Below are positions 9,060-22,966 of a stretch of DNA of 64,000 bases, piece by piece. The stretch spans positions 480,001-544,000 of the forward strand of contig CBDFIQ010000001.1 in assembly GCA_965248195.1 (NCBI GenBank), given 5' to 3'. Both the position numbers and the translations under genes were made by a program. This DNA comes from Longimicrobiales bacterium (GTDB taxonomy: Bacteria; Gemmatimonadota; Gemmatimonadetes; Longimicrobiales; Gaopeijiaceae). The notes under the pieces were generated by a model. It was not told the origin of the DNA. It worked only from the letters and a program-made list of their open reading frames with translations, and searched no databases. Position 1 is the first letter of the stretch. Each line of letters starts with the position of its first letter.

Positions 9060-9160
9060 GTCTAACGTCTCTGCGATTCTGCTGCGCGCCAAAGATGCCC
9101 TCCGCAAGCGAAGCGCACGAGCCTGATGCATACCGCGAATGCAGCAATCGCTTGTTAGGC
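9060..9160 (-). repeat. attC site 4 (empty)
   Basis: GTCTAAC...GTTAGGC, 101 bp; stop codon of the 9155-9529 ORF lies in the inverse core. Confidence 0.92.
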
Positions 9161-9529: not shown

Positions 9530-10010
9530 CGCGACGATGTAGAGCAGAATGGTTGGAAGTCTGTTAATGCCGTGCCGCCTTTGATGACGCCTAACGTCTC
9601 TGCGATTCTGATCTTATAAGGCGAAAGGCTGACCTCACTCGAGCGTGGCGTTACGCTGATCTTGCTCAAAGGCCTGCGGCACCCAACCCAAGGAGGCCAG
9701 CCATGTTTGTCGCAGGAATCGATGCTCACGCAACGTATTCGGTGATCGCCATCGTGAGCAATACAGGTCAGCTCGTGGCCGGACCCATCCGGATCAAGAA
9801 CACACAAGAGGATCGACTCGATGATCTACTTCAGCAGTATCAGCCCCTGGAGGTGGTCGTCGAGACGAGTCCGGCCTGGCCGTGGCTCTTCGATCGACTC
9901 CAAGAGCGGGGGATCGACTTCGTGCTCGCTCACGCCAAGCGGCTCCGAGTCATTGCCGAGTCCAACTACAAGAGTGACGACATCGACGCCGAGTTGTTGG
10001 CGCGTATGCG

Positions 10011-11386
10011 GGTAGTGTCCCTAGATTTGTGTAAAAGCGGATAAGCTGGACAGGAGGGAAAGAAAAACGGAAGCTCCTCTGTTGTTGTTCACTGTCACAT
10101 GAACCCGGGAGTCCGGGTCTGCAGAGCAGGCTCGGAACCGGAGAGGAGCTTCCGATGCAAGAGATTGTGGAGATCGGTCGGGCCACGCAAGACGAGCTAC
10201 GCGATGATTTGCGCGAGCTGTTTCAAGGCGCGATCCGGCTGACGCTCGAGATGGTGCTGGAAGAGGAGCTGAAGGCCATGGTAGGTGCACGCCGCTTCGA
10301 GCGGGTGGGAAGCCGGAAGGACCATAGGAACGGCACATACCTGAGGCGGCTGCTGACGAGCCTGGGGCAGATCGAGGTCGCCATGCCCCGGAGCCGGGAC
10401 AACGGTTCGCCGGCCGACGTGATCGGCCGCTACCAGCGCAGGAGCCCCGAGCTCGACGAGATGATGGTCGAGGCGTATGTGAGCGGCGTGTCACAGCGCA
10501 AGATGGGCGACGTCACCGAGGCGCTGATGGGCGAGCGTGTTGGGCGCTCGACGGTGAGTCGTGTGGCAAAACGGCTCGACGAGGCCGTGGAAGGGCTGCG
10601 CCGTGCGCCGATCGAGGGGCCTCACCCCTATCTGTACCTGGACGCCACGTTCTTGGACGCCCGCTGGGCCCGCAAAGTCGAGAACGTGAGTGCGCTCGTG
10701 GCGTATGCAGTGGGCCCTGAGGGTCACCGACGGCTCCTGGCCGTCACGCTGGGCGCTGAGGAGTCGCAGCAGAGCTGGTCGGAGCTCCTCGAGCAACTCC
10801 AGGACCGCGGCCTCGGCGGTGTCGAGCTCGTGATCGCCGATGAGCACGCAGGCCTGGCAGCTGCGGTCCGCCGCTTCCTGCCCGAGGCACGCCGTCAGAG
10901 GTGTACGGTCCATCTGCAGCGTAATGTGGGGGCGAGGGTCCCCCACCGCCTACGCAAGCGCGTGGCGCGTGAGGTCTCGGTGATCTTCCAGACATCCGGA
11001 CTCGCCGAGGCGAAGAAGCTCCTGGGCGAGTTCGGCGCACGCTGGAAGAAGGAGCTGCCCGAGGCCGTGGAGGTCCTGGAGCGGGGCTTCGGGGCAGCGA
11101 CGCAGTTCTACGCGTTCCCCGAGGCGCACTGGCCCCGGCTGCGTACCACCAACAGCCTCGAGCGGCTGCACGGCGAGATCAAACGCAGGATCAAGGCCGC
11201 CGGCGCCTTCCCGGACCGGGCCAGCGCCCTCAGGCTCATCACGGCCGTCGCACTCAGGACCACACACGTCTGGGGCGACCGGCGTTACCTCGACCTCTCA
11301 CTCCTCCAGAAACAGGAGGTCGCCCAAGCAGCCTAGCCGAAGGCGAGGAGCTTCCTCCGCTTTTACACACAAATCGGGACTTGACC
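10011..11386 (+). mobile_element. IS256-family element with 8-bp TSD CGTATGCG
   Basis: TSD at 10003-10010 and 11387-11394. Confidence 0.96.
10155..11336 (+). CDS. IS256-family transposase
   Basis: Same protein as 3169-4350. Confidence 0.95.
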   Translation: MQEIVEIGRATQDELRDDLRELFQGAIRLTLEMVLEEELKAMVGARRFERVGSRKDHRNGTYLRRLLTSLGQIEVAMPRSRDNGSPADVIGRYQRRSPELDEMMVEAYVSGVSQRKMGDVTEALMGERVGRSTVSRVAKRLDEAVEGLRRAPIEGPHPYLYLDATFLDARWARKVENVSALVAYAVGPEGHRRLLAVTLGAEESQQSWSELLEQLQDRGLGGVELVIADEHAGLAAAVRRFLPEARRQRCTVHLQRNVGARVPHRLRKRVAREVSVIFQTSGLAEAKKLLGEFGARWKKELPEAVEVLERGFGAATQFYAFPEAHWPRLRTTNSLERLHGEIKRRIKAAGAFPDRASALRLITAVALRTTHVWGDRRYLDLSLLQKQEVAQAA

Positions 11387-12124
11387 CGTATGCGACTCGC
11401 GGGCCTCATCCCCGAGGTCCATCCGAAGTGCGTCGAGCAGCGGGAGCAGGCGGTACTGCTACGCAACCGGGCACGACTCGTACGCGAACGCACACGCATG
11501 GTGAACCGCATCCATGCCCAGATCCACAACGTCGGGCTTCATCTGGAGCGTGGGCGTCTGCTCACCCAGGATGGACGCCAGTGGGTGCATGACGTGGCGT
11601 GGCCGCTGCTCGGAGCCGAGCGGCGTCTGTTCATCGACATGCAGTGGGAACTCATCGACCAGATCGTGCCGATGATCAAAACGCTTGATCGCAGGGTTGA
11701 GCACGTAGGCCGCAAGGTCCCCGCTGTAGCTCTGCTCGAGACCATCCCGGGCGTCGGTTCCTATCGGGCATTGCTCATCGCCACCGAGACGTTGCCCATC
11801 AAACGATTTCGTACACCGGGGCACCTGGTCAGCTACGCCGGTCTAGCCCCTCGCTCCTCACAGTCAGGGCTCCGGCCCATCCGCCACGGATCGATCCCCG
11901 CCGGGGCCAACCGTTGGCTGAGGGGCACCTTCGTCCGGACCGTCGTGAGCCACGTCACTCACGCGCCCGACAGCTGGCTATCACAGTCGTACGAACTGAT
12001 CAGGCAACGGCTCGGGTGGCAGGTCGCTCGGGTCGCTACCGCTCGGCGCCTCGCTCGTGCTGTGCACGCGATGCTCCGTACGGGTGAGGTCTGGCACGAT
12101 GAACCCGTGGCTCGATCAAACTGA

Positions 12125-12451
12125 GATGACACACGATGATGGACCGTACCACGACAGGGGTGAGCTCCGCGCGCAGCATGTCGCACGACGACCCTCAGAT
12201 TCTGATTGAGCCCCCCGCTCGCATAGCAGATCTTCGGACATCCCCGCGCTGGGATGAAACCTGAATAGATGCCTGAGTTCCTCGTGAGAGGAGACTCACC
12301 CAAGATCGGACGCGACGTTGGTACTGAAGGATGAAAAACGGAAGATGATCACGCAGGCCTTGAGCTACAGACCAGTGGACCGAGCCACCCCTCCGGGACC
12401 CCGGACGGGTAAGGGAGGGCTACGCCCTGTTGACTCCCTTCACCTTATAGA
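12125..12451 (+). ncRNA. Candidate bridge/seek RNA region of IS1111 copy 1
   Basis: 327-nt end with hairpins and target/donor-matching segments; RNA boundaries unknown. Confidence 0.7.
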
Positions 12452-13076
12452 TGCTGCGCGGCTAATGTGGTGACCGCGGGCGAAGCGCGCGAGCGTGATA
12501 CCTACCGCGACAGTAGCGATCGCTTGTTAGACAGCGCTGAACCCGAGGTCGGCACTTGGATAGTTACCGCCGACCTCGCCTCCGTGGGCGGCCAGGACCT
12601 CTAGGACGAAATCAGTCTTGCCGTTCAGGTACGCAAGCCGGACGGTTCCGACTTCCTCCGCAAGGCGTTGCTTCAGTACCGCGTACTGACGGGCTATCTC
12701 CGAGTCCCCTCGGAGGGCATCGCGGAAGATCAACGTGTTGCGGGAGTAGCGAGAACTGGGTTCAGCCAACGAAACGTGGTGCTTTCGGAGGCCGTCGAGC
12801 GTGCGGGGGAAATAGTGTCGGTCCGGCAGGTCATCCTTCGCGCGATACTCGAAGCCCAGCGACTCTAGGGTCGGGACCACGGCCAGGGCCTCCACGAGAT
12901 CTGGAACCCCCACGAGAATGTCGACGATGGGCTTGGCCTCTAGTCCTGGAACCGACGTACTGCCCACGTGATCCACAGAGATGATCCACCGCGGGAGCCA
13001 GCGGATGAGTTCTCCACGAACCCGCTCGAACTCGAGCGGAACCTGTCAACGACAATGGGACACTCTACGGGATTAA

Positions 13077-14084
13077 TTAGAGAGCAATATCCTGTGTGGT
13101 GAGGGAAGGGATGGGAGGATTGATGTAGACGGCCTCCGGGAGCGGTTTGGGCTTCGGCACACCTGTGACGAAGCGTTCGGGATGAGCGGCCCATGCTTCG
13201 CGGAGCACGGATTTCCTGCCGGCAATGACCTGATCGGCGTTCCCGAAGTGGACCTGCTCGGGGGTTAGCATCGAGATACCGCCATGGCGGTGCTCGGCAT
13301 TGTACCAGCGGAAGAACGATCGACACAACGTCTTGGCCTGGCCCTGATCCCCGAACCGCCCGGGAAACGAGGGATGGTACTTCAAGGTTTTGAACTGAGC
13401 CTCGGAAAACGGGTTGTCATCCGACACCTGAGGCCGGCTCAACGAGCGAGTCACGCCGAGGTCAGCGAGAAGTTGAGCGGTGCATTGGCTCGTCATTGGA
13501 GCTCCCCGATCCGAGTGCAGGGTCAGGACCCGGGGCTGGACGCCATGCTTCAGGCAGCTCTGCTGGATCAACCGGCCGGCCAGGGCCGAGTTCTCCCGGT
13601 CCGCCACCATCCAGCCCACGACGTAGCGGCTGTAGATGTCCATGATGACGTAGAGGTAGTAATAGCTCCACTTCTTCGGCCCGAGTAGCCGCGTGATATC
13701 CCAGGACCACACCTGGTTCGGCGCCGTGGCCATCAACTCGGGCTTCTTGTACTCGGGATGGGTGCGCTGCGCCCGGCGTTCCTGAACCGGCACCTCGGAG
13801 GCCAGAACACGATACATCGTGCGTTCGCTGCACAGGTAGACCTCTTCGTCGAGCAGCGTGGCCACCACCTCGGCGGGTGAGCGGTCCACGAACCGCTCCG
13901 AACACAGCGTGTCGAAGACCTCGCCTCGTTCCGTCTCGCTCAATGCCCGGGCGGGCGTCGGGCGGGGCTGCCGTTGCCCGGTCGATGGGCCTCGACGACG
14001 GTAGAACGTCGATCGGGAGACCTCGAGAGCCGCGCACGCCGGTTTTACACCGACGTGCTTAGCCAGCTCATCGGCCGCCTTCAA
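13077..14084 (-). CDS. IS3-family transposase OrfB
   Basis: Same protein as 1531-2538. Confidence 0.9.
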   Translation of the reverse strand: MKAADELAKHVGVKPACAALEVSRSTFYRRRGPSTGQRQPRPTPARALSETERGEVFDTLCSERFVDRSPAEVVATLLDEEVYLCSERTMYRVLASEVPVQERRAQRTHPEYKKPELMATAPNQVWSWDITRLLGPKKWSYYYLYVIMDIYSRYVVGWMVADRENSALAGRLIQQSCLKHGVQPRVLTLHSDRGAPMTSQCTAQLLADLGVTRSLSRPQVSDDNPFSEAQFKTLKYHPSFPGRFGDQGQAKTLCRSFFRWYNAEHRHGGISMLTPEQVHFGNADQVIAGRKSVLREAWAAHPERFVTGVPKPKPLPEAVYINPPIPSLTTQDIAL

Positions 14085-14530
14085 GAGTTCGTCCCGTCGT
14101 CGAGGCTTATCCCCAGCAGCCCCGCAACTTTTCCCTGCACGTCGATGATCAGGTGTGCCTTCCTGAGCTCATTCTCGAGCCGTGCGTTTTGCCGCTCCAG
14201 CTTGCGTACCTTCTCATCCAGCGGATTCCGCTCCGGCTTGCGGCCGCGTTTCTTCGACAGGGCCTTCAGCGACCCGCTATGCGCCGCCTTGCGCCACGTC
14301 GTCAGGTGCGACGAGTACAGGCCCTCGCGCCGCAGGAGCTGACCCACCTCGCCGGGCTCGGTGCACCGGTCCGCTTCTTCGACGATCCGCAGCTTGTACG
14401 ATGGACTGAACCGCCGGCGTAGCGGCCTATCTACTACCTCCGGGTCCGCAGGAGCTGCCGCGCTTCGCTTGGCCTCCCCGATTCCAGGGGCACTACCATT
14501 CTCTTCCATTCTCTCTCGCAGTCCCAACAT
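14081..14530 (-). CDS. IS3-family transposase OrfA
   Basis: Same protein as 2535-2984. Confidence 0.85.
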   Translation of the reverse strand: MLGLRERMEENGSAPGIGEAKRSAAAPADPEVVDRPLRRRFSPSYKLRIVEEADRCTEPGEVGQLLRREGLYSSHLTTWRKAAHSGSLKALSKKRGRKPERNPLDEKVRKLERQNARLENELRKAHLIIDVQGKVAGLLGISLDDGTNS

Positions 14531-14815
14531 GTTCGTTTTCTCTGCCTTCGCCCTACTCTAATTCTTTGCGTGCTCCGTGTCTCACGTACGTTGGCAGAGA
14601 GGGAGCGGCCAAGCCTCATCGTACGGGCGCACGACAATCCCGGCGCCCTTCTCCATCCCGACGGAATCGGAAGACTGCATCAATGCCCCATACGTGGCGC
14701 GTTCTAACGTCTCTGCGATTCTGATCTTATAAGGCGAAAGGCTGACCTCACTCGAGCGTGGCGTTACGCTGATCTTGCTCAAAGGCCTGCGGCACCCAAC
14801 CCAAGGAGGCCAGCC

Positions 14816-15853
14816 ATGTTTGTCGCAGGAATCGATGCTCACGCAACGTATTCGGTGATCGCCATCGTGAGCAACACAGGTCAGCTCGTTGCCGGACCCA
14901 TCCGGATCAAGAACACGCAAGAGGATCGGCTCAATGATCTACTGGAGCAGTATCAGCCCCTGGAGGTGGTCGTCGAGACGAGTCCGGCCTGGCCGTGGCT
15001 CTTCGATCGACTCCAAGAGCGGGGGATCGACTTCGTGCTCGCTCACGCCAAGCGGCTCCGAGTCATCGCCGAGTCCAACTACAAGAGTGACGACATCGAC
15101 GCCGAGTTGTTGGCGCGTATGCGACTCGCGGGCCTCATCCCCGAGGTCCATCCGAAGTGCGTCGAGCAGCGGGAGCAGGCGGTACTGCTACGCAACCGGG
15201 CACGACTCGTACGCGAACGCACACGCATGGTGAACCGCATCCATGCCCAGATCCACAACGTCGGGCTTCATCTGGAGCGTGGGCGTCTGCTCACCCAGGA
15301 TGGACGCCAGTGGGTGCATGACGTGGCGTGGCCGCTGCTCGGAGCCGAGCGGCGTCTGTTCATCGACATGCAGTGGGAACTCATCGACCAGATCGTGCCG
15401 ATGATCAAAACGCTTGATCGCAGGGTTGAGCACGTAGGCCGCAAGGTCCCCGCTGTAGCTCTGCTCGAGACCATCCCGGGCGTCGGTTCCTATCGGGCAT
15501 TGCTCATCGCCACCGAGACGTTGCCCATCAAACGATTTCGTACACCGGGGCACCTGGTCAGCTACGCCGGTCTAGCCCCTCGCTCCTCACAGTCAGGGCT
15601 CCGGCCCATCCGCCACGGATCGATCCCCGCCGGGGCCAACCGTTGGCTGAGGGGCACCTTCGTCCGGACCGTCGTGAGCCACGTCACTCACGCGCCCGAC
15701 AGCTGGCTATCACAGTCGTACGAACTGATCAGGCAACGGCTCGGGTGGCAGGTCGCTCGGGTCGCTACCGCTCGGCGCCTCGCTCGTGCTGTGCACGCGA
15801 TGCTCCGTACGGGTGAGGTCTGGCACGATGAACCCGTGGCTCGATCAAACTGA
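14816..15853 (+). CDS. IS110-family DEDD transposase/recombinase, 345 aa
   Basis: GIDAH, VVET, KSDDIDA; LETIPGVG; SYAGLAPRSSQSG; AGGAGG RBS. Confidence 0.96.
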   Translation: MFVAGIDAHATYSVIAIVSNTGQLVAGPIRIKNTQEDRLNDLLEQYQPLEVVVETSPAWPWLFDRLQERGIDFVLAHAKRLRVIAESNYKSDDIDAELLARMRLAGLIPEVHPKCVEQREQAVLLRNRARLVRERTRMVNRIHAQIHNVGLHLERGRLLTQDGRQWVHDVAWPLLGAERRLFIDMQWELIDQIVPMIKTLDRRVEHVGRKVPAVALLETIPGVGSYRALLIATETLPIKRFRTPGHLVSYAGLAPRSSQSGLRPIRHGSIPAGANRWLRGTFVRTVVSHVTHAPDSWLSQSYELIRQRLGWQVARVATARRLARAVHAMLRTGEVWHDEPVARSN

Positions 15854-16180
15854 GATGACACACGATGATGGACCGTACCACGACAGGGGTGAGCTCCGCG
15901 CGCAGCATGTCGCACGACGACCCTCAGATTCTGATTGAGCCCCCCGCTCGCATAGCAGATCTTCGGACATCCCCGCGCTGGGATGAAACCTGAATAGATG
16001 CCTGAGTTCCTCGTGAGAGGAGACTCACCCAAGATCGGACGCGACGTTGGTACTGAAGGATGAAAAACGGAAGATGATCACGCAGGCCTTGAGCTACAGA
16101 CCAGTGGACCGAGCCACCCCTCCGGGACCCCGGACGGGTAAGGGAGGGCTACGCCCTGTTGACTCCCTTCACCTTATAGA
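15854..16180 (+). ncRNA. Candidate bridge/seek RNA region of IS1111 copy 2
   Basis: CGCGCAGCA 15899-15907, GATTCTG 15927-15933, ATAGATG 15994-16000 and AAGATC 16031-16036 match target or donor. Confidence 0.75.
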
Positions 16181-16324
16181 TGCTGCGCGGCTAAGATGCC
16201 CTCCGCAAGCGGAGCGCGCGAGCCTGATGCTTACCGCGACCGCAGCAATCGCTTGTTAGAACGTGCCTAGCAACCTTTGTACTACAGATGCACTCTTCTC
16301 AACAAAACACCCGGGAATCATCAC

Positions 16325-17017
16325 ATGCAGCCAATCGGTCCCGTTGAGCCCGATCTCGTGACCATTCCCGCCGGAGACTTTCTCATGGGAAGCGAAACCG
16401 GCGCCGGTAATGAAAAGCCAGTGCACCGCGTATGGGTGGATGCCTTTGCGATCGCCAGATATCCCGTGACGCGTCGAGACTATGCGGCCTTTCTCGAAGC
16501 CACCGGGCATCCGCCAACAAAGTTCTGGGGTGATCCCAGATTTCAGCTCCCGAATCAGCCTGTTGTGAGTCCGAGTTGGTTCGACGCTGTTGCCTACTGC
16601 GATTGGTTGTCCGGGCAGACCCGCAAACACTACCGTTTGCCCACAGAAGCCGAGAGGGAAAAAGCAGCTCGCGGCGGGCTGGAAGGGTGCGACTATCCCT
16701 GGGGCAACGAGCCACCGGAAGACTTGCGCGGAGTGAACCCGCCTCTAGAAGAAGTGGGGACAGAGGGTCCCAACGGCTACGGACTTTACAATATGTCCGT
16801 CGGCGTGCACGAGTGGTGCTCGGATCGCTATAGCCCGAACTATTATGAGGCGTCTCCAAACCGAAACCCCGAAGGACCCTCCGGCGGCGACCGTCGTGCA
16901 GCACGCGGAGGGGCCTGGCGGCATGCCGTCCGGTACTCCCGCTGCTCGGCGCGAAGCAGCATCGGCCCAGAGAAGACGTTCAACGATTTCGGCTTTCGTT
17001 GTGCCCTGACGCTTTGA
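16325..17017 (+). CDS. Formylglycine-generating enzyme (FGE-sulfatase/SUMF1) domain protein; cassette in reverse orientation
   Basis: FLMGS, RLPTEAEREKAARGG, YPWG, PNGYGLYNM, GFRC. Confidence 0.92.
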   Translation: MQPIGPVEPDLVTIPAGDFLMGSETGAGNEKPVHRVWVDAFAIARYPVTRRDYAAFLEATGHPPTKFWGDPRFQLPNQPVVSPSWFDAVAYCDWLSGQTRKHYRLPTEAEREKAARGGLEGCDYPWGNEPPEDLRGVNPPLEEVGTEGPNGYGLYNMSVGVHEWCSDRYSPNYYEASPNRNPEGPSGGDRRAARGGAWRHAVRYSRCSARSSIGPEKTFNDFGFRCALTL

Positions 17018-17367
17018 CTGCGGACGAGACGGCTACTCGATTAGGCGAGGTCTCATCCCCCTTAATGACACCTCGAAACGCAACCAGATTGGCGAAGAAA
17101 TCCCGGCTCAGCCCCGTTAAGGCGGCCTGTTCCTCGATTCGGTGGTGGCGCTCCTCCCAGCATGCCTGGATCCCAAAGCCCGATCGCTACTCCCTCGACC
17201 GTGATCCGGAGCCTCGGAATGTCAGGTGCCCGTTACCTGGCTGCCGGGGCGTGGCCTAACGGATTTGCGATTCTGATCTTATAAGGCGAAAGGCTGACCT
17301 CACTCGAGCGTGGCGTTACGCTGATCTTGCTCAAAGGCCTGCGGCACCCAACCCAAGGAGGCCAGCC

Positions 17368-18405
17368 ATGTTTGTCGCAGGAATCGATGCTCACGCAACG
17401 TATTCGGTGATCGCCATCGTGAGCAACACAGGTCAGCTCGTTGCCGGACCCATCCGGATCAAGAATACGCAAGAGGATCGGCTCAATGATCTACTGGAGC
17501 AGTATCAGCCCCTGGAGGTGGTCGTCGAGACGAGTCCGGCCTGGCCGTGGCTCTTCGATCGACTCCAAGAGCGGGGGATCGACTTCGTGCTCGCTCACGC
17601 CAAGCGGCTCCGAGTCATCGCCGAGTCCAACTACAAGAGTGACGACATCGACGCCGAGTTGTTGGCGCGTATGCGACTCGCGGGCCTCATCCCCGAGGTC
17701 CATCCGAAGTGCGTCGAGCAGCGGGAGCAGGCGGTACTGCTACGCAACCGGGCACGACTCGTACGCGAACGCACACGCATGGTGAACCGCATCCATGCCC
17801 AGATCCACAACGTCGGGCTTCATCTGGAGCGTGGGCGTCTGCTCACCCAGGATGGACGCCAGTGGGTGCATGACGTGGCGTGGCCGCTGCTCGGAGCCGA
17901 GCGGCGTCTGTTCATCGACATGCAGTGGGAACTCATCGACCAGATCGTGCCGATGATCAAAACGCTTGATCGCAGGGTTGAGCACGTAGGCCGCAAGGTC
18001 CCCGCTGTAGCTCTGCTCGAGACCATCCCGGGCGTCGGTTCCTATCGGGCATTGCTCATCGCCACCGAGACGTTGCCCATCAAACGATTTCGTACACCGG
18101 GGCACCTGGTCAGCTACGCCGGTCTAGCCCCTCGCTCCTCACAGTCAGGGCTCCGGCCCATCCGCCACGGATCGATCCCCGCCGGGGCCAACCGTTGGCT
18201 GAGGGGCACCTTCGTCCGGACCGTCGTGAGCCACGTCACTCACGCGCCCGACAGCTGGCTATCACAGTCGTACGAACTGATCAGGCAACGGCTCGGGTGG
18301 CAGGTCGCTCGGGTCGCTACCGCTCGGCGCCTCGCTCGTGCTGTGCACGCGATGCTCCGTACGGGTGAGGTCTGGCACGATGAACCCGTGGCTCGATCAA
18401 ACTGA
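17368..18405 (+). CDS. IS110-family transposase
   Basis: Same protein as 14816-15853. Confidence 0.96.
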   Translation: MFVAGIDAHATYSVIAIVSNTGQLVAGPIRIKNTQEDRLNDLLEQYQPLEVVVETSPAWPWLFDRLQERGIDFVLAHAKRLRVIAESNYKSDDIDAELLARMRLAGLIPEVHPKCVEQREQAVLLRNRARLVRERTRMVNRIHAQIHNVGLHLERGRLLTQDGRQWVHDVAWPLLGAERRLFIDMQWELIDQIVPMIKTLDRRVEHVGRKVPAVALLETIPGVGSYRALLIATETLPIKRFRTPGHLVSYAGLAPRSSQSGLRPIRHGSIPAGANRWLRGTFVRTVVSHVTHAPDSWLSQSYELIRQRLGWQVARVATARRLARAVHAMLRTGEVWHDEPVARSN

Positions 18406-18732
18406 GATGACACACGATGATGGACCGTACCACGACAGGGGTGAGCTCCGTGCGCAGCATGTCGCACGACGACCCTCAGATTCTGATTGAGCCCCCCGCT
18501 CGCATAGCAGATCTTCGGACATCCCCGCGCTGGGATGAAACCTGAATAGATGCCTGAGTTCCTCGTGAGAGGAGACTCACCCAAGATCGGACGCGACGTT
18601 GGTACTGAAGGATGAAAAACGGAAGATGATCACGCAGGCCTTGAGCTACAGACCAGTGGACCGAGCCACCCCTCCGGGACCCCGGACGGGTAAGGGAGGG
18701 CTACGCCCTGTTGACTCCCTTCACCTTATAGA
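18406..18732 (+). ncRNA. Candidate bridge/seek RNA region of IS1111 copy 3
   Basis: As copy 2 with a C>T at 18451. Confidence 0.72.
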
Positions 18733-18850
18733 TGCTGCGCGGCTAATGTGGTGACCGCAAGCGAAGCGCGCGAGCCTGATGCCAACCGCGACTGCAGCAA
18801 TCGCTTGTTAGGCAGCTGGCGGTGATCGGCCAACTCGCAACGCTCGGGAC

Positions 18851-19780
18851 TCAACCCACCGGATAACAAGCGAGGTCCTCGCCGACTCTCACGACTCCGT
18901 CGTAGCGAGTCCTGACCTCAGTAACGCCCTCCTCGAGGTCCCCAACGAATAGGTGACTGAGGATTAACTGTTCGACGTCCGCGTCCGCAGCAACTTGGCC
19001 AACGACGTCGGGGGTTGCATGGAAATCGAGCGTTTCCCCCGATGCCGTGGGGGAGACTGCCAGGTGCATCACCAAAGCCGAGGCGTTGCGTGAAAATGAG
19101 ACGAAGGCTGGGTCGCTGCCGGTCTGATCACCGCTGAACACAACGCTCACGCCCTGAGCCTCCACCCGGTAGGCGAGCGAGGGGACATTCGCATGCGGCA
19201 CTGGTAGCGCACGCACCGTCAGACCCGCTTCCTGCAAGATCACGGTGGAGCCAGCCATTTCGACATCAACCATTACCGGGTCGAGACGCACGCCTCGCCC
19301 TGGCCCGCCGAGTGTGCCGCCGAGAATCTGAAAGGCACCAGCCTCCGGATCGAAGAGCCGCGAGAGAAACAGGTTCAGCGGTGGGTAGGCCTCGTTTCCG
19401 GAAGGACCCGCGATACGAAGTGGCTCTTGGCGGAGGCCATCACTCAGCCAGAGAATGGCGGAAAGGCCAGAAACGTGGTCTGGATGAAAATGGCTGAGTG
19501 CGAGGAGATCCAAGTCCGCCAGCTGCGCGCCCGACTCGCCGACGCGCAGAAACGATCCTCCACCTGCGTCCACCATGATCCGGGAACGACCATCGACCCA
19601 AACCACATAGCTAGACGAGGCTCGACCCGTTCCAGCGCGTGGGCCACCAGACCCGAGGACCTGCACGGCCACGCCGGTAGCGGGGCACTGCTCTTGATCG
19701 ACGACGCAGGACGATGCAAAAAAAACGAAGAGGAAGCATGTCGTGTGGAACACCCGCAAGTTGAGACCCATATTCGGCAT
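18851..19780 (-). CDS. MBL-fold metallo-hydrolase (RNase Z/arylsulfatase-like) with signal peptide (cassette)
   Basis: VLGSGGP, VDAGGG, SHFHPDH, FSGD, LSH motifs. Confidence 0.9.
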   Translation of the reverse strand: MPNMGLNLRVFHTTCFLFVFFASSCVVDQEQCPATGVAVQVLGSGGPRAGTGRASSSYVVWVDGRSRIMVDAGGGSFLRVGESGAQLADLDLLALSHFHPDHVSGLSAILWLSDGLRQEPLRIAGPSGNEAYPPLNLFLSRLFDPEAGAFQILGGTLGGPGRGVRLDPVMVDVEMAGSTVILQEAGLTVRALPVPHANVPSLAYRVEAQGVSVVFSGDQTGSDPAFVSFSRNASALVMHLAVSPTASGETLDFHATPDVVGQVAADADVEQLILSHLFVGDLEEGVTEVRTRYDGVVRVGEDLACYPVG

Positions 19781-19942
19781 CCCTTTCTCTTCGACAAGAT
19801 CCGAGCGTAAGCCCGCTGGGAGCCAGCTGCCTAACGGATCTGCGATTCTGATCTTATAAGGCGAAAGGCTGACCTCACTCGAGCGTGGCGTTACGCTGAT
19901 CTTGCTCAAAGGCCTGCGGCACCCAACCCAAGGAGGCCAGCC

Positions 19943-20980
19943 ATGTTTGTCGCAGGAATCGATGCTCACGCAACGTATTCGGTGATCGCCATCGTGAGCA
20001 ACACAGGTCAGCTCGTTGCCGGACCCATCCGGATCAAGAACACGCAAGAGGATCGGCTCAATGATCTACTGGAGCAGTATCAGCCCCTGGAGGTGGTCGT
20101 CGAGACGAGTCCGGCCTGGCCGTGGCTCTTCGATCGACTCCAAGAGCGGGGGATCGACTTCGTGCTCGCTCACGCCAAGCGGCTCCGAGTCATCGCCGAG
20201 TCCAACTACAAGAGTGACGACATCGACGCCGAGTTGTTGGCGCGTATGCGACTCGCGGGCCTCATCCCCGAGGTCCATCCGAAGTGCGTCGAGCAGCGGG
20301 AGCAGGCGGTACTGCTACGCAACCGGGCACGACTCGTACGCGAACGCACACGCATGGTGAACCGCATCCATGCCCAGATCCACAACGTCGGGCTTCATCT
20401 GGAGCGTGGGCGTCTGCTCACCCAGGATGGACGCCAGTGGGTGCATGACGTGGCGTGGCCGCTGCTCGGAGCCGAGCGGCGTCTGTTCATCGACATGCAG
20501 TGGGAACTCATCGACCAGATCGTGCCGATGATCAAAACGCTTGATCGCAGGGTTGAGCACGTAGGCCGCAAGGTCCCCGCTGTAGCTCTGCTCGAGACCA
20601 TCCCGGGCGTCGGTTCCTATCGGGCATTGCTCATCGCCACCGAGACGTTGCCCATCAAACGATTTCGTACACCGGGGCACCTGGTCAGCTACGCCGGTCT
20701 AGCCCCTCGCTCCTCACAGTCAGGGCTCCGGCCCATCCGCCACGGATCGATCCCCGCCGGGGCCAACCGTTGGCTGAGGGGCACCTTCGTCCGGACCGTC
20801 GTGAGCCACGTCACTCACGCGCCCGACAGCTGGCTATCACAGTCGTACGAACTGATCAGGCAACGGCTCGGGTGGCAGGTCGCTCGGGTCGCTACCGCTC
20901 GGCGCCTCGCTCGTGCTGTGCACGCGATGCTCCGTACGGGTGAGGTCTGGCACGATGAACCCGTGGCTCGATCAAACTGA
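19943..20980 (+). CDS. IS110-family transposase
   Basis: Same protein as copies 2 and 3. Confidence 0.96.
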   Translation: MFVAGIDAHATYSVIAIVSNTGQLVAGPIRIKNTQEDRLNDLLEQYQPLEVVVETSPAWPWLFDRLQERGIDFVLAHAKRLRVIAESNYKSDDIDAELLARMRLAGLIPEVHPKCVEQREQAVLLRNRARLVRERTRMVNRIHAQIHNVGLHLERGRLLTQDGRQWVHDVAWPLLGAERRLFIDMQWELIDQIVPMIKTLDRRVEHVGRKVPAVALLETIPGVGSYRALLIATETLPIKRFRTPGHLVSYAGLAPRSSQSGLRPIRHGSIPAGANRWLRGTFVRTVVSHVTHAPDSWLSQSYELIRQRLGWQVARVATARRLARAVHAMLRTGEVWHDEPVARSN

Positions 20981-21142
20981 GATGACACACGATGATGGAC
21001 CGTACCACGACAGGGGTGAGCTCCGCGCGCAGCATGTCGCACGACGACCCTCAGATTCTGATTGAGCCCCCCGCTCGCATAGCAGATCTTCGGACATCCC
21101 CGCGGAACCTGTCAACGACAATGGGACACTCTACGGGATTAA

Positions 21143-22150
21143 TTAGAGAGCAATATCCTGTGTGGTGAGGGAAGGGATGGGAGGATTGATGTAGACGGCC
21201 TCCGGGAGCGGTTTGGGCTTCGGCACACCTGTGACGAAGCGTTCGGGATGAGCGGCCCATGCTTCGCGGAGCACGGATTTCCTGCCGGCAATGACCTGAT
21301 CGGCGTTCCCGAAGTGGACCTGCTCGGGGGTTAGCATCGAGATACCGCCATGGCGGTGCTCGGCATTGTACCAGCGGAAGAACGATCGACACAACGTCTT
21401 GGCCTGGCCCTGATCCCCGAACCGCCCGGGAAACGAGGGATGGTACTTCAAGGTTTTGAACTGAGCCTCGGAAAACGGGTTGTCATCCGACACCTGAGGC
21501 CGGCTCAACGAGCGAGTCACGCCGAGGTCAGCGAGAAGTTGAGCGGTGCATTGGCTCGTCATTGGAGCTCCCCGATCCGAGTGCAGGGTCAGGACCCGGG
21601 GCTGGACGCCATGCTTCAGGCAGCTCTGCTGGATCAACCGGCCGGCCAGGGCCGAGTTCTCCCGGTCCGCCACCATCCAGCCCACGACGTAGCGGCTGTA
21701 GATGTCCATGATGACGTAGAGGTAGTAATAGCTCCACTTCTTCGGCCCGAGTAGCCGCGTGATATCCCAGGACCACACCTGGTTCGGCGCCGTGGCCATC
21801 AACTCGGGCTTCTTGTACTCGGGATGGGTGCGCTGCGCCCGGCGTTCCTGAACCGGCACCTCGGAGGCCAGAACACGATACATCGTGCGTTCGCTGCACA
21901 GGTAGACCTCTTCGTCGAGCAGCGTGGCCACCACCTCGGCGGGTGAGCGGTCCACGAACCGCTCCGAACACAGCGTGTCGAAGACCTCGCCTCGTTCCGT
22001 CTCGCTCAATGCCCGGGCGGGCGTCGGGCGGGGCTGCCGTTGCCCGGTCGATGGGCCTCGACGACGGTAGAACGTCGATCGGGAGACCTCGAGAGCCGCG
22101 CACGCCGGTTTTACACCGACGTGCTTAGCCAGCTCATCGGCCGCCTTCAA
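21143..22150 (-). CDS. IS3-family transposase OrfB
   Basis: Same protein as other copies. Confidence 0.9.
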   Translation of the reverse strand: MKAADELAKHVGVKPACAALEVSRSTFYRRRGPSTGQRQPRPTPARALSETERGEVFDTLCSERFVDRSPAEVVATLLDEEVYLCSERTMYRVLASEVPVQERRAQRTHPEYKKPELMATAPNQVWSWDITRLLGPKKWSYYYLYVIMDIYSRYVVGWMVADRENSALAGRLIQQSCLKHGVQPRVLTLHSDRGAPMTSQCTAQLLADLGVTRSLSRPQVSDDNPFSEAQFKTLKYHPSFPGRFGDQGQAKTLCRSFFRWYNAEHRHGGISMLTPEQVHFGNADQVIAGRKSVLREAWAAHPERFVTGVPKPKPLPEAVYINPPIPSLTTQDIAL

Positions 22151-22596
22151 GAGTTCGTCCCGTCGTCGAGGCTTATCCCCAGCAGCCCCGCAACTTTTCC
22201 CTGCACGTCGATGATCAGGTGTGCCTTCCTGAGCTCATTCTCGAGCCGTGCGTTTTGCCGCTCCAGCTTGCGTACCTTCTCATCCAGCGGATTCCGCTCC
22301 GGCTTGCGGCCGCGTTTCTTCGACAGGGCCTTCAGCGACCCGCTATGCGCCGCCTTGCGCCACGTCGTCAGGTGCGACGAGTACAGGCCCTCGCGCCGCA
22401 GGAGCTGACCCACCTCGCCGGGCTCGGTGCACCGGTCCGCTTCTTCGACGATCCGCAGCTTGTACGATGGACTGAACCGCCGGCGTAGCGGCCTATCTAC
22501 TACCTCCGGGTCCGCAGGAGCTGCCGCGCTTCGCTTGGCCTCCCCGATTCCAGGGGCACTACCATTCTCTTCCATTCTCTCTCGCAGTCCCAACAT
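22147..22596 (-). CDS. IS3-family transposase OrfA
   Basis: Same protein as other copies. Confidence 0.85.
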   Translation of the reverse strand: MLGLRERMEENGSAPGIGEAKRSAAAPADPEVVDRPLRRRFSPSYKLRIVEEADRCTEPGEVGQLLRREGLYSSHLTTWRKAAHSGSLKALSKKRGRKPERNPLDEKVRKLERQNARLENELRKAHLIIDVQGKVAGLLGISLDDGTNS

Positions 22597-22966
22597 GTTC
22601 GTTTTCTCTGCCTTCGCCCTACTCTAATTCTTTGCGTGCTCCGTGTCTCACGTACGTTGGCAGAGAGGGCCGCGCTGGGATGAAACCTGAATAGATGCCT
22701 GAGTTCCTCGTGAGAGGAGACTCACCCAAGATCGGACGCGACGTTGGTACTGAAGGATGAAAAACGGAAGATGATCACGCAGGCCTTGAGCTACAGACCA
22801 GTGGACCGAGCCACCCCTCCGGGACCCCGGACGGGTAAGGGAGGGCTACGCCCTGTTGACTCCCTTCACCTTATAGATGCTGCGCGGCTAAGATGCCCTC
22901 CGCAAGCGGAGCGCGCGACCCTCCCGTTCTCGCGACTGCAGCAATCGCTTGTTAGATGGCGGCGGG

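What the first reader, a model, noticed from the sequence alone, without database searches (positions are those of the whole stretch)
15854..16180. Right end of the attC-targeting IS1111 reads as a guide (bridge/seek) RNA with both target and donor guides
Seen: the target is GATTC-TG-CTGCGCG and the predicted circle junction is TATAGA-TG-ATCTT. The 327-nt end contains CGCGCAGCA (15899-15907, reverse complement of core plus right target) and GATTCTG (15927-15933, left target plus core). Further on is ATAGATG (15994-16000, left donor plus core), a GTGA-capped hairpin, then AAGATC (16031-16036, reverse complement of GATCTT). A second possible right-target guide, AGCAG, follows the GAGC/GCTC hairpin after GATTCTG, which would parallel the donor loop. 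Both left guides extend to match the product junctions (GATTCTGAT, ATAGATGC). Known: IS110/IS1111 recombinases use an element-encoded RNA for target and donor recognition, encoded downstream of the CDS in IS1111. Inference: this is an RNA-programmed recombinase aimed at this host's attC family. The matches are short, and whether this ortholog is already described cannot be judged here.
Basis: partly seen in the sequence, partly recalled or inferred. Interest (0 to 1): 0.9.

Follow-up and report, generated by a model that had tools for sequence, protein, structure and literature searches.

The report
Guide RNA of an attC-hunting insertion sequence
The non-coding right end of this insertion sequence encodes a guide RNA that steers its recombinase to one 14-base site in the host's integron recombination sites; this kind of system is already known, but here it comes from a new bacterial lineage with many naturally re-aimed relatives.

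Summary

**What it is.** A 1.46-kb IS1111-like element encoding a DEDD/Ser "IS110 family RNA-guided transposase". Four copies lie in the window and at least 13 left ends in the genome. All sit at GATTC-TG^CTGCGCG, mostly in attC sites.

**Target guides: confirmed.** In about 120 relatives the RNA scaffold is conserved while two loop strands change with the flanks.
- The right guide matches core plus right flank at 8 or more of 9 bases in 55 of 70 cognate pairs, against 0.04% of 5,529 non-cognate pairs.
- A 90%-identical relative has both guides slid 3 bp along the same attC.

**Left donor guide: likely.** ATAGATG tracks the right IS end in 70 of 71 elements, but that reflects only about 4-5 independent changes.

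**Not supported.**
- The right donor guide AAGATC: its GATC appears to be a helix strand and its AA varies freely.
- The GAGC/GCTC hairpin and the second right-target guide AGCAG.

**Novelty.** The kind is known (seekRNA/bridge RNA, and attC-targeting ISKpn4/ISPst6). This is a new Gemmatimonadota lineage that hits a different attC position.

The parts
14724..16182 (+). IS copy A (1,459 bp). The core TG is present at both junctions: 14722-14723 in the left flank and 16181-16182 at the right end.
   Evidence: identical copies with identical junctions elsewhere in the window and genome.
14728..14734 (+). Left subterminal inverted repeat TATAAGG. Its partner is CCTTATA at 16172-16178.
   Evidence: Read. 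It is conserved as (C/T)TATAA(A/G)G and C(C/T)TTATA in relatives.
14816..15853 (+). Transposase gene, 345 aa, a DEDD + Ser RNA-guided recombinase.
   Evidence: PF01548 + PF02371. NF033542 scores 194.2 bits against a cut-off of 140. A family profile aligns to IS621 (8wt6) and ISCro4 (9t56), with D7, E54, D92, D95 and S260 opposite the catalytic residues.
15884..16040 (+). Conserved guide-RNA scaffold of about 157 nt: the target-binding loop plus a three-helix donor module.
   Evidence: Alignments A1 and A3. In the structure count, 94.3% of cells are paired against 31-48% when slid, and 15 of 31 pairs show changes on both sides. The length matches published long seekRNAs of 148-172 nt (table in PMC13604230).
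15886..15896 (+). P1 5' strand, GGGG..GCTC. It pairs with GAGC.CCCC at 15937-15945 and closes the target loop.
   Evidence: Compensatory G-C to A-U changes occur at two P1 pairs: 6 sequences at one pair and 1 at another.
15897..15907 (+). Right-target guide, the 5' strand of the target loop. Bases 15899-15907 (CGCGCAGCA) are complementary to the top strand TG-CTGCGCG.
   Evidence: Covariation with the right flank: 55 of 70 cognate pairs match at 8 or more of 9 bases, against 0.036% of 5,529 non-cognate pairs.
15909..15921 (+). P2 hairpin inside the target loop: GTCG at 15909-15912 pairs with CGAC at 15918-15921.
   Evidence: A U-A to C-G change on both sides occurs in 20 of 73 sequences.
15927..15935 (+). 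Left-target guide GATTC + core TG (15927-15933), same sense as the target top strand. It is followed by AT (15934-15935), which matches the first two bases of the left IS end.
   Evidence: the match runs 4-6 bases beyond the core in 61 of 75 cognate pairs. For the extension: left ends of type AC carry the RNA extension AC in 17 of 17 elements. Type AT carries AT in 37 and AC in 18.
15946..15962 (+). Conserved linker GCTCGCATAGCAGATCT. GATC at 15958-15961 is the proposed 5' strand of helix P5. The linker is also an unproven candidate for reading the left IS end.
   Evidence: It does not covary with the target.
15963..15992 (+). P3 hairpin. The outer stem is 15963-15966 with 15989-15992 and the inner stem is 15968-15971 with 15982-15985. 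Its length varies among relatives.
   Evidence: 6 of 8 pairs show changes on both sides.
15994..16001 (+). Left-donor guide ATAGA + core TG, followed by an invariant C. It lies single-stranded between P3 and P4.
   Evidence: Its variable base equals the last base of the right IS end in 70 of 71 elements (A 26, G 40, C 4; L043 is the exception). L031 has ATGGC in both places. On the tree these amount to only 4-5 changes.
16003..16027 (+). P4 hairpin, with a GTGA loop in this copy.
   Evidence: The fifth pair is U-A, A-U or C-G, with changes on both sides in 31 of 73 sequences.
16031..16036 (+). GATC at 16033-16036 is better read as the 3' strand of helix P5, pairing with 15958-15961.
   Evidence: The bases before GATC vary (AA, AC, GA, CA, CT, AT, TC) with no relation to the left-end type. 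L090 has GATAC with GTATC, and so does L044, read by eye.
16146..16164 (+). Conserved small hairpin GGGC-TAC(G)-GCCC followed by TTGACT (16159-16164) near the right end.
   Evidence: Nearly invariant columns in A1. A role as the -35 box of a junction promoter is an inference from ISEc11 (PMC11187229). The spacing to TATAAG in the left end would be 22 nt.
17276..18734 (+). IS copy B, intact, at the same position in another attC.
19851..22879 (+). IS copy C. Its guide-RNA gene is split in the P3 loop by an IS3-family element (about 21105-22669).
9611..12453 (+). IS copy D. Its transposase gene is split by an IS256/Mutator-type element (about 10011-11380).
9075..9088 (+). Unoccupied perfect 14-bp target GATTCTGCTGCGCG in an attC. 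It is one of only two left in the genome.

Best explanation
This is an IS1111-like insertion sequence whose DEDD/Ser recombinase is aimed by an RNA encoded just downstream of its own gene (scaffold 15884-16040).

Shown by sequence comparison. The RNA's first module is an internal loop between stem P1 and hairpin P2.
- Its 5' strand (CGCGCAGCA) is complementary to the top strand of core plus right target.
- Its 3' strand (GATTCTG) is identical to left target plus core, so it can pair with the bottom strand.
- Together they specify the 14-bp site GATTC-TG-CTGCGCG in one arm of this host's attC sites, 15 nt after the AAC of the 5' core.

Probable. The second module is a three-helix junction (P3, P4 and a weakly supported P5). 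It presents ATAGATG, which matches the right IS end plus core; this serves as the left donor guide.

Possible. The two bases after the left target guide (AT) and the C after the left donor guide read the first bases across the product junctions. This resembles the handshake guides of IS621, but here they sit on the left guides.

Unresolved. How the left IS end is recognised. AAGATC is probably not the guide.

Inferred from published relatives, not shown here. The RNA is made from the transposase transcript, binds the enzyme and is needed for both excision and insertion.
For: Enzyme. Pfam PF01548 + PF02371. NCBIfam 'IS110 family RNA-guided transposase' scores 194 bits against a cut-off of 140. 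The catalytic D, E, D, D and S are aligned with IS621 (residue identities from PMC11208158, passages).

Site specificity.
- All 13 left ends in the genome follow GATTCTG.
- The 11 right ends precede CTGCGCG (9), TTGCGCG (1) or CTGCGCA (1). At least 3 of these junctions lie outside attC-like sequence.
- Of 18 attC sites of this family that could be assessed, 9 are occupied and only 2 empty ones keep the perfect 14-mer. The other 7 carry mismatches.

Guides.
- There are 67 different guide combinations among relatives.
- The right guide matches its own flank at 8 or more of 9 bases in 55 of 70 pairs, with a mean of 7.93. Non-cognate pairs have a mean of 4.16, and 0.036% of 5,529 reach 8.
- Single-base compensations occur in L021, L022/L065, L087 and L118.
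- A 3-bp register shift occurs in L061, which is 90% identical in protein, and a third register occurs in L085.

Structure. 94.3% of cells are paired against 31-48% when partners are slid. 15 of 31 pairs show double changes, and 0 of 500 shuffles reach the observed values.

Order of guides. It is as in IS1111 seekRNAs (PMC11187229).

Left donor guide. 70 of 71 elements are concordant over three base states, plus L031.
Against: - No RNA, binding or activity data exist for this element.
- Rfam has no matching family.
- Single-sequence folding is no better than shuffles, with z of -0.74 and -0.66.
- Donor-side support rests on few independent events. There are 5 changes of the right-end base on a FastTree of 94 transposases. 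Of the 4 independent pairs, 3 go the same way, 1 is unchanged and none goes the opposite way, and the sign test is not significant.
- No RNA segment covaries with the left IS end within the scaffold.
- The published short seekRNA of ISEc11, which is the target loop only, sufficed for transposition (PMC11187229). A donor loop may therefore be dispensable in this group.
- 7 of 70 right-guide pairs match at fewer than 7 of 9 bases. Examples are L044, L093, L050 and L045.
- The subterminal repeats are shorter (7 bp perfect) than the 11-13 bp given for IS1111.
Confidence: 0.85

Rival explanations
1. The donor loop is a simple internal loop around the GTGA hairpin, with ATAGATG as left donor guide and AAGATC (16031-16036) as right donor guide pairing with the top strand of G-ATCTT at the left IS end.
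For: - AAGATC is exactly complementary to the core G plus ATCTT.
- RNAalifold on 26 sequences draws a CCG/CGG stem that would enclose such a loop.
- In this copy and its close relatives the match is 6 nt.
Against: - Across relatives only GATC(GG) is conserved.
- The two bases before it are AA, AC, GA, CA, CT, AT, TC, GT or GG, and they are spread alike over left ends of type ATCTT, ATCCT and ACCTT.
- Elements with left end ACCTT keep GATC, which gives a mismatch.
- In L090 and L044 (read by eye) the motif becomes GTATC. The upstream GATC becomes GATAC while the left end stays TGATC. This indicates an RNA-RNA helix.
- The chance of a 6-mer in 327 nt is 8%.
Confidence: 0.12
2. Target-only guide (strict seekRNA model). 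Only the first module reads DNA. The IS ends are recognised by the protein through the subterminal inverted repeats. The agreement between ATAGATG and the right end is inherited or structural, not a base-pairing contact.
For: - The 82-nt ISEc11 seekRNA alone supported transposition at 42% (PMC11187229).
- The concordance rests on few independent changes.
- No guide for the left end was found.
- There is one exception, L043.
Against: - The second module is as conserved as the first.
- The one freely varying base of ATAG-N-TG matches the right end in three base states in 70 of 71 elements. In L031 two positions change together.
- Durrant et al. report donor-complementary nucleotides in multi-loops of IS1111 bridge RNAs (PMC11208160, passage).
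Confidence: 0.2
3. The word matches are coincidental. The enzyme recognises the folded attC structure or its sequence directly, as integron integrases do.
For: The matches are short. attC sites are structured and repeated, so an IS confined to them would show a constant flank in any case.
Against: - 67 guide combinations follow their own flanks in relatives.
- At least 3 junctions lie outside attC-like sequence yet keep the short target.
- Empty attC sites of the same family mostly differ at target bases.
- The joint chance of the two target words is 1.5e-5.
Confidence: 0.02

Closest known systems
ISKpn4 / ISPst6 / ISPa25 (IS1111-attC group) and their seekRNAs (Siddiquee et al. 2024, PMC11187229; Tetu & Holmes 2008 and Post & Hall 2009 seen only as cited references)
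   Same: - An IS1111-type element that inserts at one fixed position and orientation in integron attC sites.
- The guide RNA is encoded downstream of the transposase gene.
- The top-strand match lies 5' of the bottom-strand match.
- The long RNA form is about 150 nt.
   Different: - The ISKpn4 target is CGGCTTGAA*CGAATTGTTAG, next to the 3' (GTTAG) core (table of PMC13604230). This element cuts GATTC-TG^CTGCGCG, 15 nt after the 5' (AAC) core, in the other arm.
- No plasmid-borne relative exceeds about 34% protein identity. Whether ISKpn4 is among those hits was not checked.
- The host lineage is Gemmatimonadota (record titles).
- There are no experimental data here.
ISEc11 / ISXne4 seekRNA (PMC11187229)
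   Same: - The target loop carries two strand-specific matches that overlap at the insertion point.
- Natural redirection occurs between related elements.
- The donor must be flanked by the target.
   Different: - Redirection here is seen between elements 90% identical in protein (Q and L061), against 72% for ISEc11 and ISXne4.
- It includes register shifts along one site.
- Donor-end matches were not described for ISEc11 in the sections I read.
IS621 bridge RNA (Durrant et al. 2024, PMC11208160; Hiraizumi et al. 2024, PMC11208158)
   Same: - A DEDD + Ser recombinase.
- A 2-nt core shared by target and donor.
- One guide pairs with the bottom strand on the left and one with the top strand on the right.
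- A separate donor module.
- Extra bases that read across the product junction.
   Different: - In IS621 the RNA lies upstream of the gene, and the left guide comes first in each loop.
- Its donor loop is a simple internal loop.
- Its handshake guides follow the right guides. Here the junction-reading bases follow the left guides, and no right donor guide was identified.
- The IS621 match appears only with a family profile (E 6e-14), not with the single sequence.
Predicted IS1111 bridge RNAs such as ISPa11 (Durrant et al. 2024, Fig. 6 / Extended Data Fig. 10; legends and text only)
   Same: The RNA is encoded in the right end, and donor-complementary nucleotides sit in a multi-loop rather than a simple internal loop.
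   Different: The figures could not be seen, so base-by-base comparison was not possible.
Group IIC-attC introns (PMC3001079; abstract seen in the listing)
   Same: Another mobile element that homes to attC sites using RNA.
   Different: It is a retro-element with a ribozyme and reverse transcriptase, and it is unrelated in sequence and mechanism.

Membership tests
IS110-family RNA-guided (bridge) recombinases | An N-terminal RuvC-like DEDD domain plus a C-terminal Tnp domain. | tested here: met
   PF01548 at E 3e-16 and PF02371 at E 2.5e-15. NF033542 scores 194.2 bits against a cut-off of 140.
IS110-family RNA-guided (bridge) recombinases | Catalytic D, E, D, D and a serine nucleophile (D11, E60, D102, D105 and S241 in IS621). 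| tested here: met
   The profile alignment to 8wt6 places D7, E54, D92, D95 and S260 opposite them. Four are invariant and D7 is at least 90% conserved in 14 relatives.
IS110-family RNA-guided (bridge) recombinases | A target-binding loop with one guide for each strand meeting at a shared core. | tested here: met
IS110-family RNA-guided (bridge) recombinases | A donor-binding loop with left and right donor guides. | tested here: inconclusive
   The left donor guide is concordant in 70 of 71 elements, but from few independent events. No right donor guide was found.
IS110-family RNA-guided (bridge) recombinases | The RNA binds the enzyme and is required for recombination. | not testable with these tools
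   Relatives occur in RNA-library contigs from sediments, but contigs cannot show transcription.
IS1111 group | The long non-coding region lies downstream of the transposase gene. | tested here: met
   329 nt after the stop codon against 92 nt before the start.
IS1111 group | The guide matching the top strand lies 5' of the guide matching the bottom strand. | tested here: met
   15899-15907 comes before 15927-13933 in coordinate order, that is 15899-15907 before 15927-15933. The criterion is from PMC11187229.
IS1111 group | Subterminal inverted repeats of 11-13 bp, perfect or nearly so. | tested here: inconclusive
   Only 7 bp are perfect (TATAAGG / CCTTATA). A longer imperfect repeat needs a 1-nt gap (read).
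IS1111 group | Terminal extensions of 7 (or 6) bp on the left and 3 bp on the right. | tested here: inconclusive
   If TG is counted on the left, the extensions are 6 bp (TGATCT) on the left and 2 bp (GA) on the right. If TG is counted on the right, they are 4 and 4.
IS1111 group | The C-terminal motif GL-P----S(t)G. | tested here: met
   GLAPRSSQSG at residues 252-261 (translation). G252, L253, P255, S260 and G261 are invariant.
IS1111 group | The transposase is related over its full length to that of IS1111. | not tested
   No IS1111 sequence was available. The nearest named hit is ISHvo10-like at about 31% identity.
IS1111-attC group (ISKpn4, ISPst6, ISPa25) | Inserts in attC sites in one orientation. 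| tested here: met
   All four window copies and most genome copies lie between a YTAAC core and a GTTAG core.
IS1111-attC group (ISKpn4, ISPst6, ISPa25) | The same target position, ..TTGAA^CGNATTGTTAG beside the 3' core. | tested here: not met
   Here the position is GATTCTG^CTGCGCG, 15 nt after the 5' AAC core, against the table in PMC13604230.
IS1111-attC group (ISKpn4, ISPst6, ISPa25) | Transposase and non-coding region similar to those of ISKpn4. | not tested
   No ISKpn4 sequence was in hand. All 511 plasmid records with a hit are below 60% identity, and the best listed is about 34%.

The most novel reading that the evidence does not exclude
In this lineage the donor is read asymmetrically.
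- RNA reads only the right IS end, through ATAGATG.
- The left IS end is checked only by two junction-reading bases appended to the left target guide, plus the protein acting on the inverted repeat.
- The handshake function therefore sits on the left guides, the mirror image of IS621.

If so, this family is a natural hybrid between the target-only seekRNA picture and the two-loop bridge RNA picture. It comes with 67 ready-made natural specificities, including three registers on one attC.
Probability: 0.25. Interest if true: 0.6.

Novelty: new member of a known kind. Interest (0 to 1): 0.4.

Why it matters
It adds no new principle. RNA-guided IS110/IS1111 recombinases and attC-targeting IS1111 elements are both published. 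Its value lies in three things.

1. **A clean natural experiment.** Dozens of related elements share one scaffold but carry different guides. Some are 90% identical in protein yet shifted by 3 bp on the same site. This defines which RNA positions are programmable (about 5 + 2 + 7 bases).

2. **Evidence on donor recognition in IS1111-type elements.** The two founding papers differ on this point. Here one donor guide is supported and the other is not found.

3. **Impact on integrons.** A chromosomal integron in Gemmatimonadota has about half of the assessable attC sites of one family occupied by an IS, and only two perfect targets are left. This should impair cassette excision and shuffling at those sites.

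Tried and rejected
- **Rfam 15** on 14000-19500 at E up to 1: no family.
- **Single-sequence folding** of 15854-16182 and 15870-16050: energies are no better than shuffles. Structure had to come from comparison.
- **My first regular expression** for the scaffold failed on all but two loci. I replaced it with simpler anchors.
- **Plasmid tblastn** to find ISKpn4-like relatives: only distant hits of 34% or less. A direct comparison with ISKpn4 was therefore not made.
- **Single-sequence search of PDB sequences**: nothing at E up to 0.001. The family profile did find IS621 and ISCro4.
- **Unbiased search for RNA columns that follow the left IS end**. No column shows same or complementary agreement near 1. 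The best column (159) only reflects a U-G to C-G change in P4. The left end varies at too few positions (ATCTT 33, ATCCT 10, ACCTT 10, ACTTT 1 among the 54 aligned rows).
- **A closing stem CUCG/UGAG for the donor module**, by analogy with P1: considered and rejected. UGAG pairs with the downstream GACUCG (P4, compensated), and the variants of CUCG are not compensated.
- **The linker AUAG-NN-AGAUC(A)** as right donor guide. It is complementary to TGATCT..TAT with a 2-nt bulge. It remains possible, but it is invariant where the left end varies, so it is untestable here.
- **RNA-library runs**. Contigs from four marine-sediment metatranscriptome studies cover relatives of the element at 90-99% identity, including the non-coding end. 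Contigs cannot show transcription, strand, ends or level, and DNA may be present. This is no evidence either way.
- **Earlier notes of this scan**: none for this place.
- **Promoter and terminator scan** of 14600-16300: none found. The conserved TTGACT in the right end would sit 22 nt from TATAAG of the left end in a circle junction, which is too far for a standard sigma-70 promoter. Its role is unexplained.
Full report
**The observation.**
Reading 14200-16500 and an exact-word scan confirm every word and coordinate in the finding.
- The element runs from 14724 to 16182.
- The dinucleotide TG stands at both junctions: GATTC-TG-ATCTT on the left and TATAGA-TG-CTGCGCG on the right.
- BLAST of the element against the window finds four copies. 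A and B are intact.
- Copy C is split by an IS3-family element and copy D by an IS256/Mutator-type element.
- All four copies sit at the same position of an attC-like site. A YTAAC core lies 15 nt upstream and a GTTAG core about 90 nt downstream.

**Genome context.**
In the whole genome (4.86 Mb, two contigs) there are 13 left ends and 11 right ends.
- Every left end follows GATTCTG.
- Right ends precede CTGCGCG (9), TTGCGCG (1) or CTGCGCA (1).
- At least three of these junctions are not in attC-like sequence, so the short word rather than the attC fold is what is shared.
- I found 24 matches to the conserved 3' half of this attC family. Nine are preceded by the IS right end, nine have an intact 5' half, and six show no recognisable 5' half.
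- Of the nine intact sites only two keep the perfect 14-mer (window 9075-9088 and G000:C1:1100250). The other seven differ at target bases.

**The enzyme.**
The 345-aa ORF (14816-15853) has PF01548 and PF02371. It passes NCBIfam NF033542, "IS110 family RNA-guided transposase", at 194 bits against a cut-off of 140.
- The single sequence does not reach any solved structure.
- A profile of 14 relatives (A2) matches ISCro4 (9t56, E 7.7e-15) and IS621 (8wt6, E 6.4e-14).
- D7, E54, D92, D95 and S260 lie opposite the residues that Hiraizumi et al. name as catalytic (passages of PMC11208158).

**What is known.**
I read the Results of Siddiquee et al. 2024 (PMC11187229).
- IS1111 members encode a seekRNA downstream of the transposase gene.
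- The match to the top strand lies 5' of the match to the bottom strand.
- ISKpn4 and ISPst6, which target attC sites, co-purify with such an RNA. ISPa25 is predicted to have one.
- A short 82-nt form sufficed for ISEc11 transposition.

From Durrant et al. 2024 (PMC11208160) I read the passages that mention IS1111.
- Bridge RNAs are predicted in the right end of 93% of IS1111 elements.
- Their donor-binding nucleotides often lie in a multi-loop.

**Relatives.**
- A protein-pattern scan of one genome per species gave 40 loci. All are from Gemmatimonadota or Longimicrobiales MAGs by record title, apart from one labelled Deltaproteobacteria. They are 47-91% identical.
- A scan of metagenome contigs found 363 relatives, of which 80 were returned.
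- Plasmid records hold nothing above about 34% identity.

**The target loop.**
The region after the stop codon aligns well across relatives (A1 with 26 sequences; A3 with 73 distinct sequences).
- RNAalifold and my pair count support stem P1. GGGG..GCTC at 15886-15896 pairs with GAGC.CCCC at 15937-15945.
- They also support hairpin P2 (15909-15912 with 18-21 of the same hundred, that is 15918-15921).
- Between P1 and P2 lie two variable strands: 15897-15907 and 15922-15935.
- On A3, 94.3% of cells pair, against 31-48% when partners are slid by 1-3 columns.
- 15 of 31 pairs show changes on both sides, and 0 of 500 shuffles reach the observed values.

I parsed the two variable strands and the flanks by regular expressions. 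This gave 107 scaffold hits, of which 102 were unique. Seventy had both a parsed 5' strand and a right flank, and 75 had a left flank. The rest lacked a flank on the contig or failed my patterns.
- The reverse complement of the 5' strand equals core plus right flank at 8 or more of 9 positions in 55 of 70 pairs, and at 7 or more in 63 of 70. The mean is 7.93.
- The 5,529 non-cognate pairs average 4.16, and 0.036% reach 8.
- The 3' strand equals the left flank for 4-6 bases beyond the core in 61 of 75 pairs.
- There are 67 distinct guide combinations.

Examples:
- L061 is 90% identical in protein and reads GATTCTGC-TG-CGCGGCT. That is the same attC, 3 bp further along, with both strands changed accordingly.
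- L034, L036 and L127 use the same register at 64-65% identity.
- L085 uses a third TG upstream (TG-CGATTCTGC).
- L087 and L125 read GGTTC.
- L118 and L123 read GTTTC.
- L022 and L065 read CATTC.
- L021 has one guide base changed to match CTGCAC.

Seven pairs fit poorly. Among them are L044, L093, L050 and L045, which may be rearranged or off-target copies.

This settles the target half of the finding. GAGC belongs to P1, and the downstream GCTC is TTTC in L042, L049, L054 and others.

**The donor module.**
After P1 comes a conserved linker (GCTCGCATAG-C/G-AGATC). It is followed by a variable hairpin P3, the strand AATAG-N-TGC, hairpin P4 (TGAGTC/GACTCG, well compensated) and then CC..GATCGG.
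- The base N equals the last base of the right IS end in 70 of 71 elements (A-A 26, G-G 40, C-C 4; L043 is the exception).
- In L031 both read ATGGC.
- This supports ATAGATG as a guide for the right IS end.
- On a FastTree of 94 transposases the right-end base changes only 5 times. The independent contrasts number about four: three concordant, one unchanged and none opposite. The evidence is consistent but thin.

- Only GATC(GG) is conserved.
- The preceding two bases take nine different values, spread alike over left ends ATCTT, ATCCT and ACCTT.
- Where GATC does change (GTATC in L090, and in L044 read by eye), the upstream GATC of the linker changes to GATAC and the left end does not.
- I therefore read the two GATC words as a helix, P5. 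It would close a three-way junction with P3 and P4, which fits the multi-loop wording of Durrant et al.
- P5 itself is weakly supported. Three of its five pairs never vary, there is one compensated case in A3, and its fifth pair is unpaired in 41 of 73 sequences.
- An unbiased scan found no scaffold column that follows the left IS end.
- The linker AUAG-NN-AGAUC(A) is complementary to TGATCT..TAT with a 2-nt bulge. It occupies the position that parallels the right target guide, since both are followed by CA-UG and a hairpin. It is invariant where the left end varies, so it stays a conjecture.

**Junction-reading bases.**
The left target guide is followed by A and then U or C.
- Elements whose left end starts AC have C in 17 of 17 cases.
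- Those starting AT have U in 37 and C in 18, the latter mostly close relatives of this element.
- Tree contrasts: about 3 go the same way and none the opposite way.
- The left donor guide is followed by an invariant C, and the first base of the right target is C in 63 of 71 elements.

In IS621, handshake guides follow the right guides and read the last bases of the other DNA's left half (PMC11208158). Here the analogous bases would follow the left guides. This is an inference.

**Comparison with the attC-targeting group.**
A review table (PMC13604230) gives the ISKpn4 target as CGGCTTGAA*CGAATTGTTAG, beside the 3' core. The present element inserts in the opposite arm, 15 nt from the 5' core. 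Together with the low protein identity to anything on plasmids, this suggests an independent aiming at attC sites rather than membership of that group. I could not compare sequences directly.

**Expression.**
- No sigma-70-like promoter or intrinsic terminator is found in the integrated copy.
- Metatranscriptome libraries from marine sediments contain contigs of relatives that cover the gene and the non-coding end. Contigs cannot prove transcription.

**Verdict.**
- The system is a new member of a known kind.

Noticed in passing
window 21105-22669 (inside IS copy C); also 13077-14530: An IS3-family element (149-aa HTH_Tnp_1 ORF plus 335-aa rve ORF, minus strand) is inserted in the P3 loop of copy C's guide-RNA gene. 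A 5-bp overlap of the flanking pieces suggests a target duplication. A second copy lies just left of IS copy A.
   Followed up: partly
window 10011-11380 (inside IS copy D): An IS256/Mutator-type element (393-aa ORF, PF00872 at E 5e-100) splits the transposase gene of copy D.
   Followed up: partly
L045:3535-3900: In a Longimicrobiales MAG the right end of one copy abuts ACTGAGCCCC, the sequence just after the left-target-guide word of another copy. The DNA encoding the guide (left target plus core) seems to have served as a target itself.
   Followed up: no
L031, L056, L037/L038 (junctions listed): In three lineages the dinucleotide at the right junction is CG or AG while the left junction has TG. 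Their right-target guides carry CG at the core position and their left guides carry UG. Target and donor cores may differ at the first base, with U-G wobble on one side.
   Followed up: no
window 16159-16164 and 16146-16156: TTGAC is almost invariant near the right end in all relatives and is preceded by a small GGGC/GCCC hairpin. As the -35 box of a circle-junction promoter it would lie 22 nt from TATAAG of the left end, which is too far for a standard promoter.
   Followed up: partly
window 16072-16079: AGATGATC is a same-sense copy of the predicted circle junction (AGA-TG-ATC). It lies in the poorly conserved part of the non-coding end and is kept only in close relatives (for example L019, L020, L041).
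   Followed up: partly
G000:C1:1112697-1113260 (outside the window): The best integron-integrase-like match of the genome scores 238.7 bits against a cut-off of 265. It covers only positions 120-307 of the model and has two TAG stops. It lies next to another attC/IS cluster at 1.08-1.11 Mb. The window's own attC array has no such gene nearby in this search.
   Followed up: no
G000:C2:1762105-1762333 and C2:1909504-1910027: Two partial IS pieces (bases 1-229 and 929-1459) lie on the same strand 147 kb apart. Their non-attC flanks together would make GATTCTG + CTGCGCA. They may be one copy split by a rearrangement.
   Followed up: no
window 15935 (table 3): In all four RNA-library runs the contigs read C instead of T at 15935, the second base after the left target guide. 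This is the variant carried by most close relatives.
   Followed up: no
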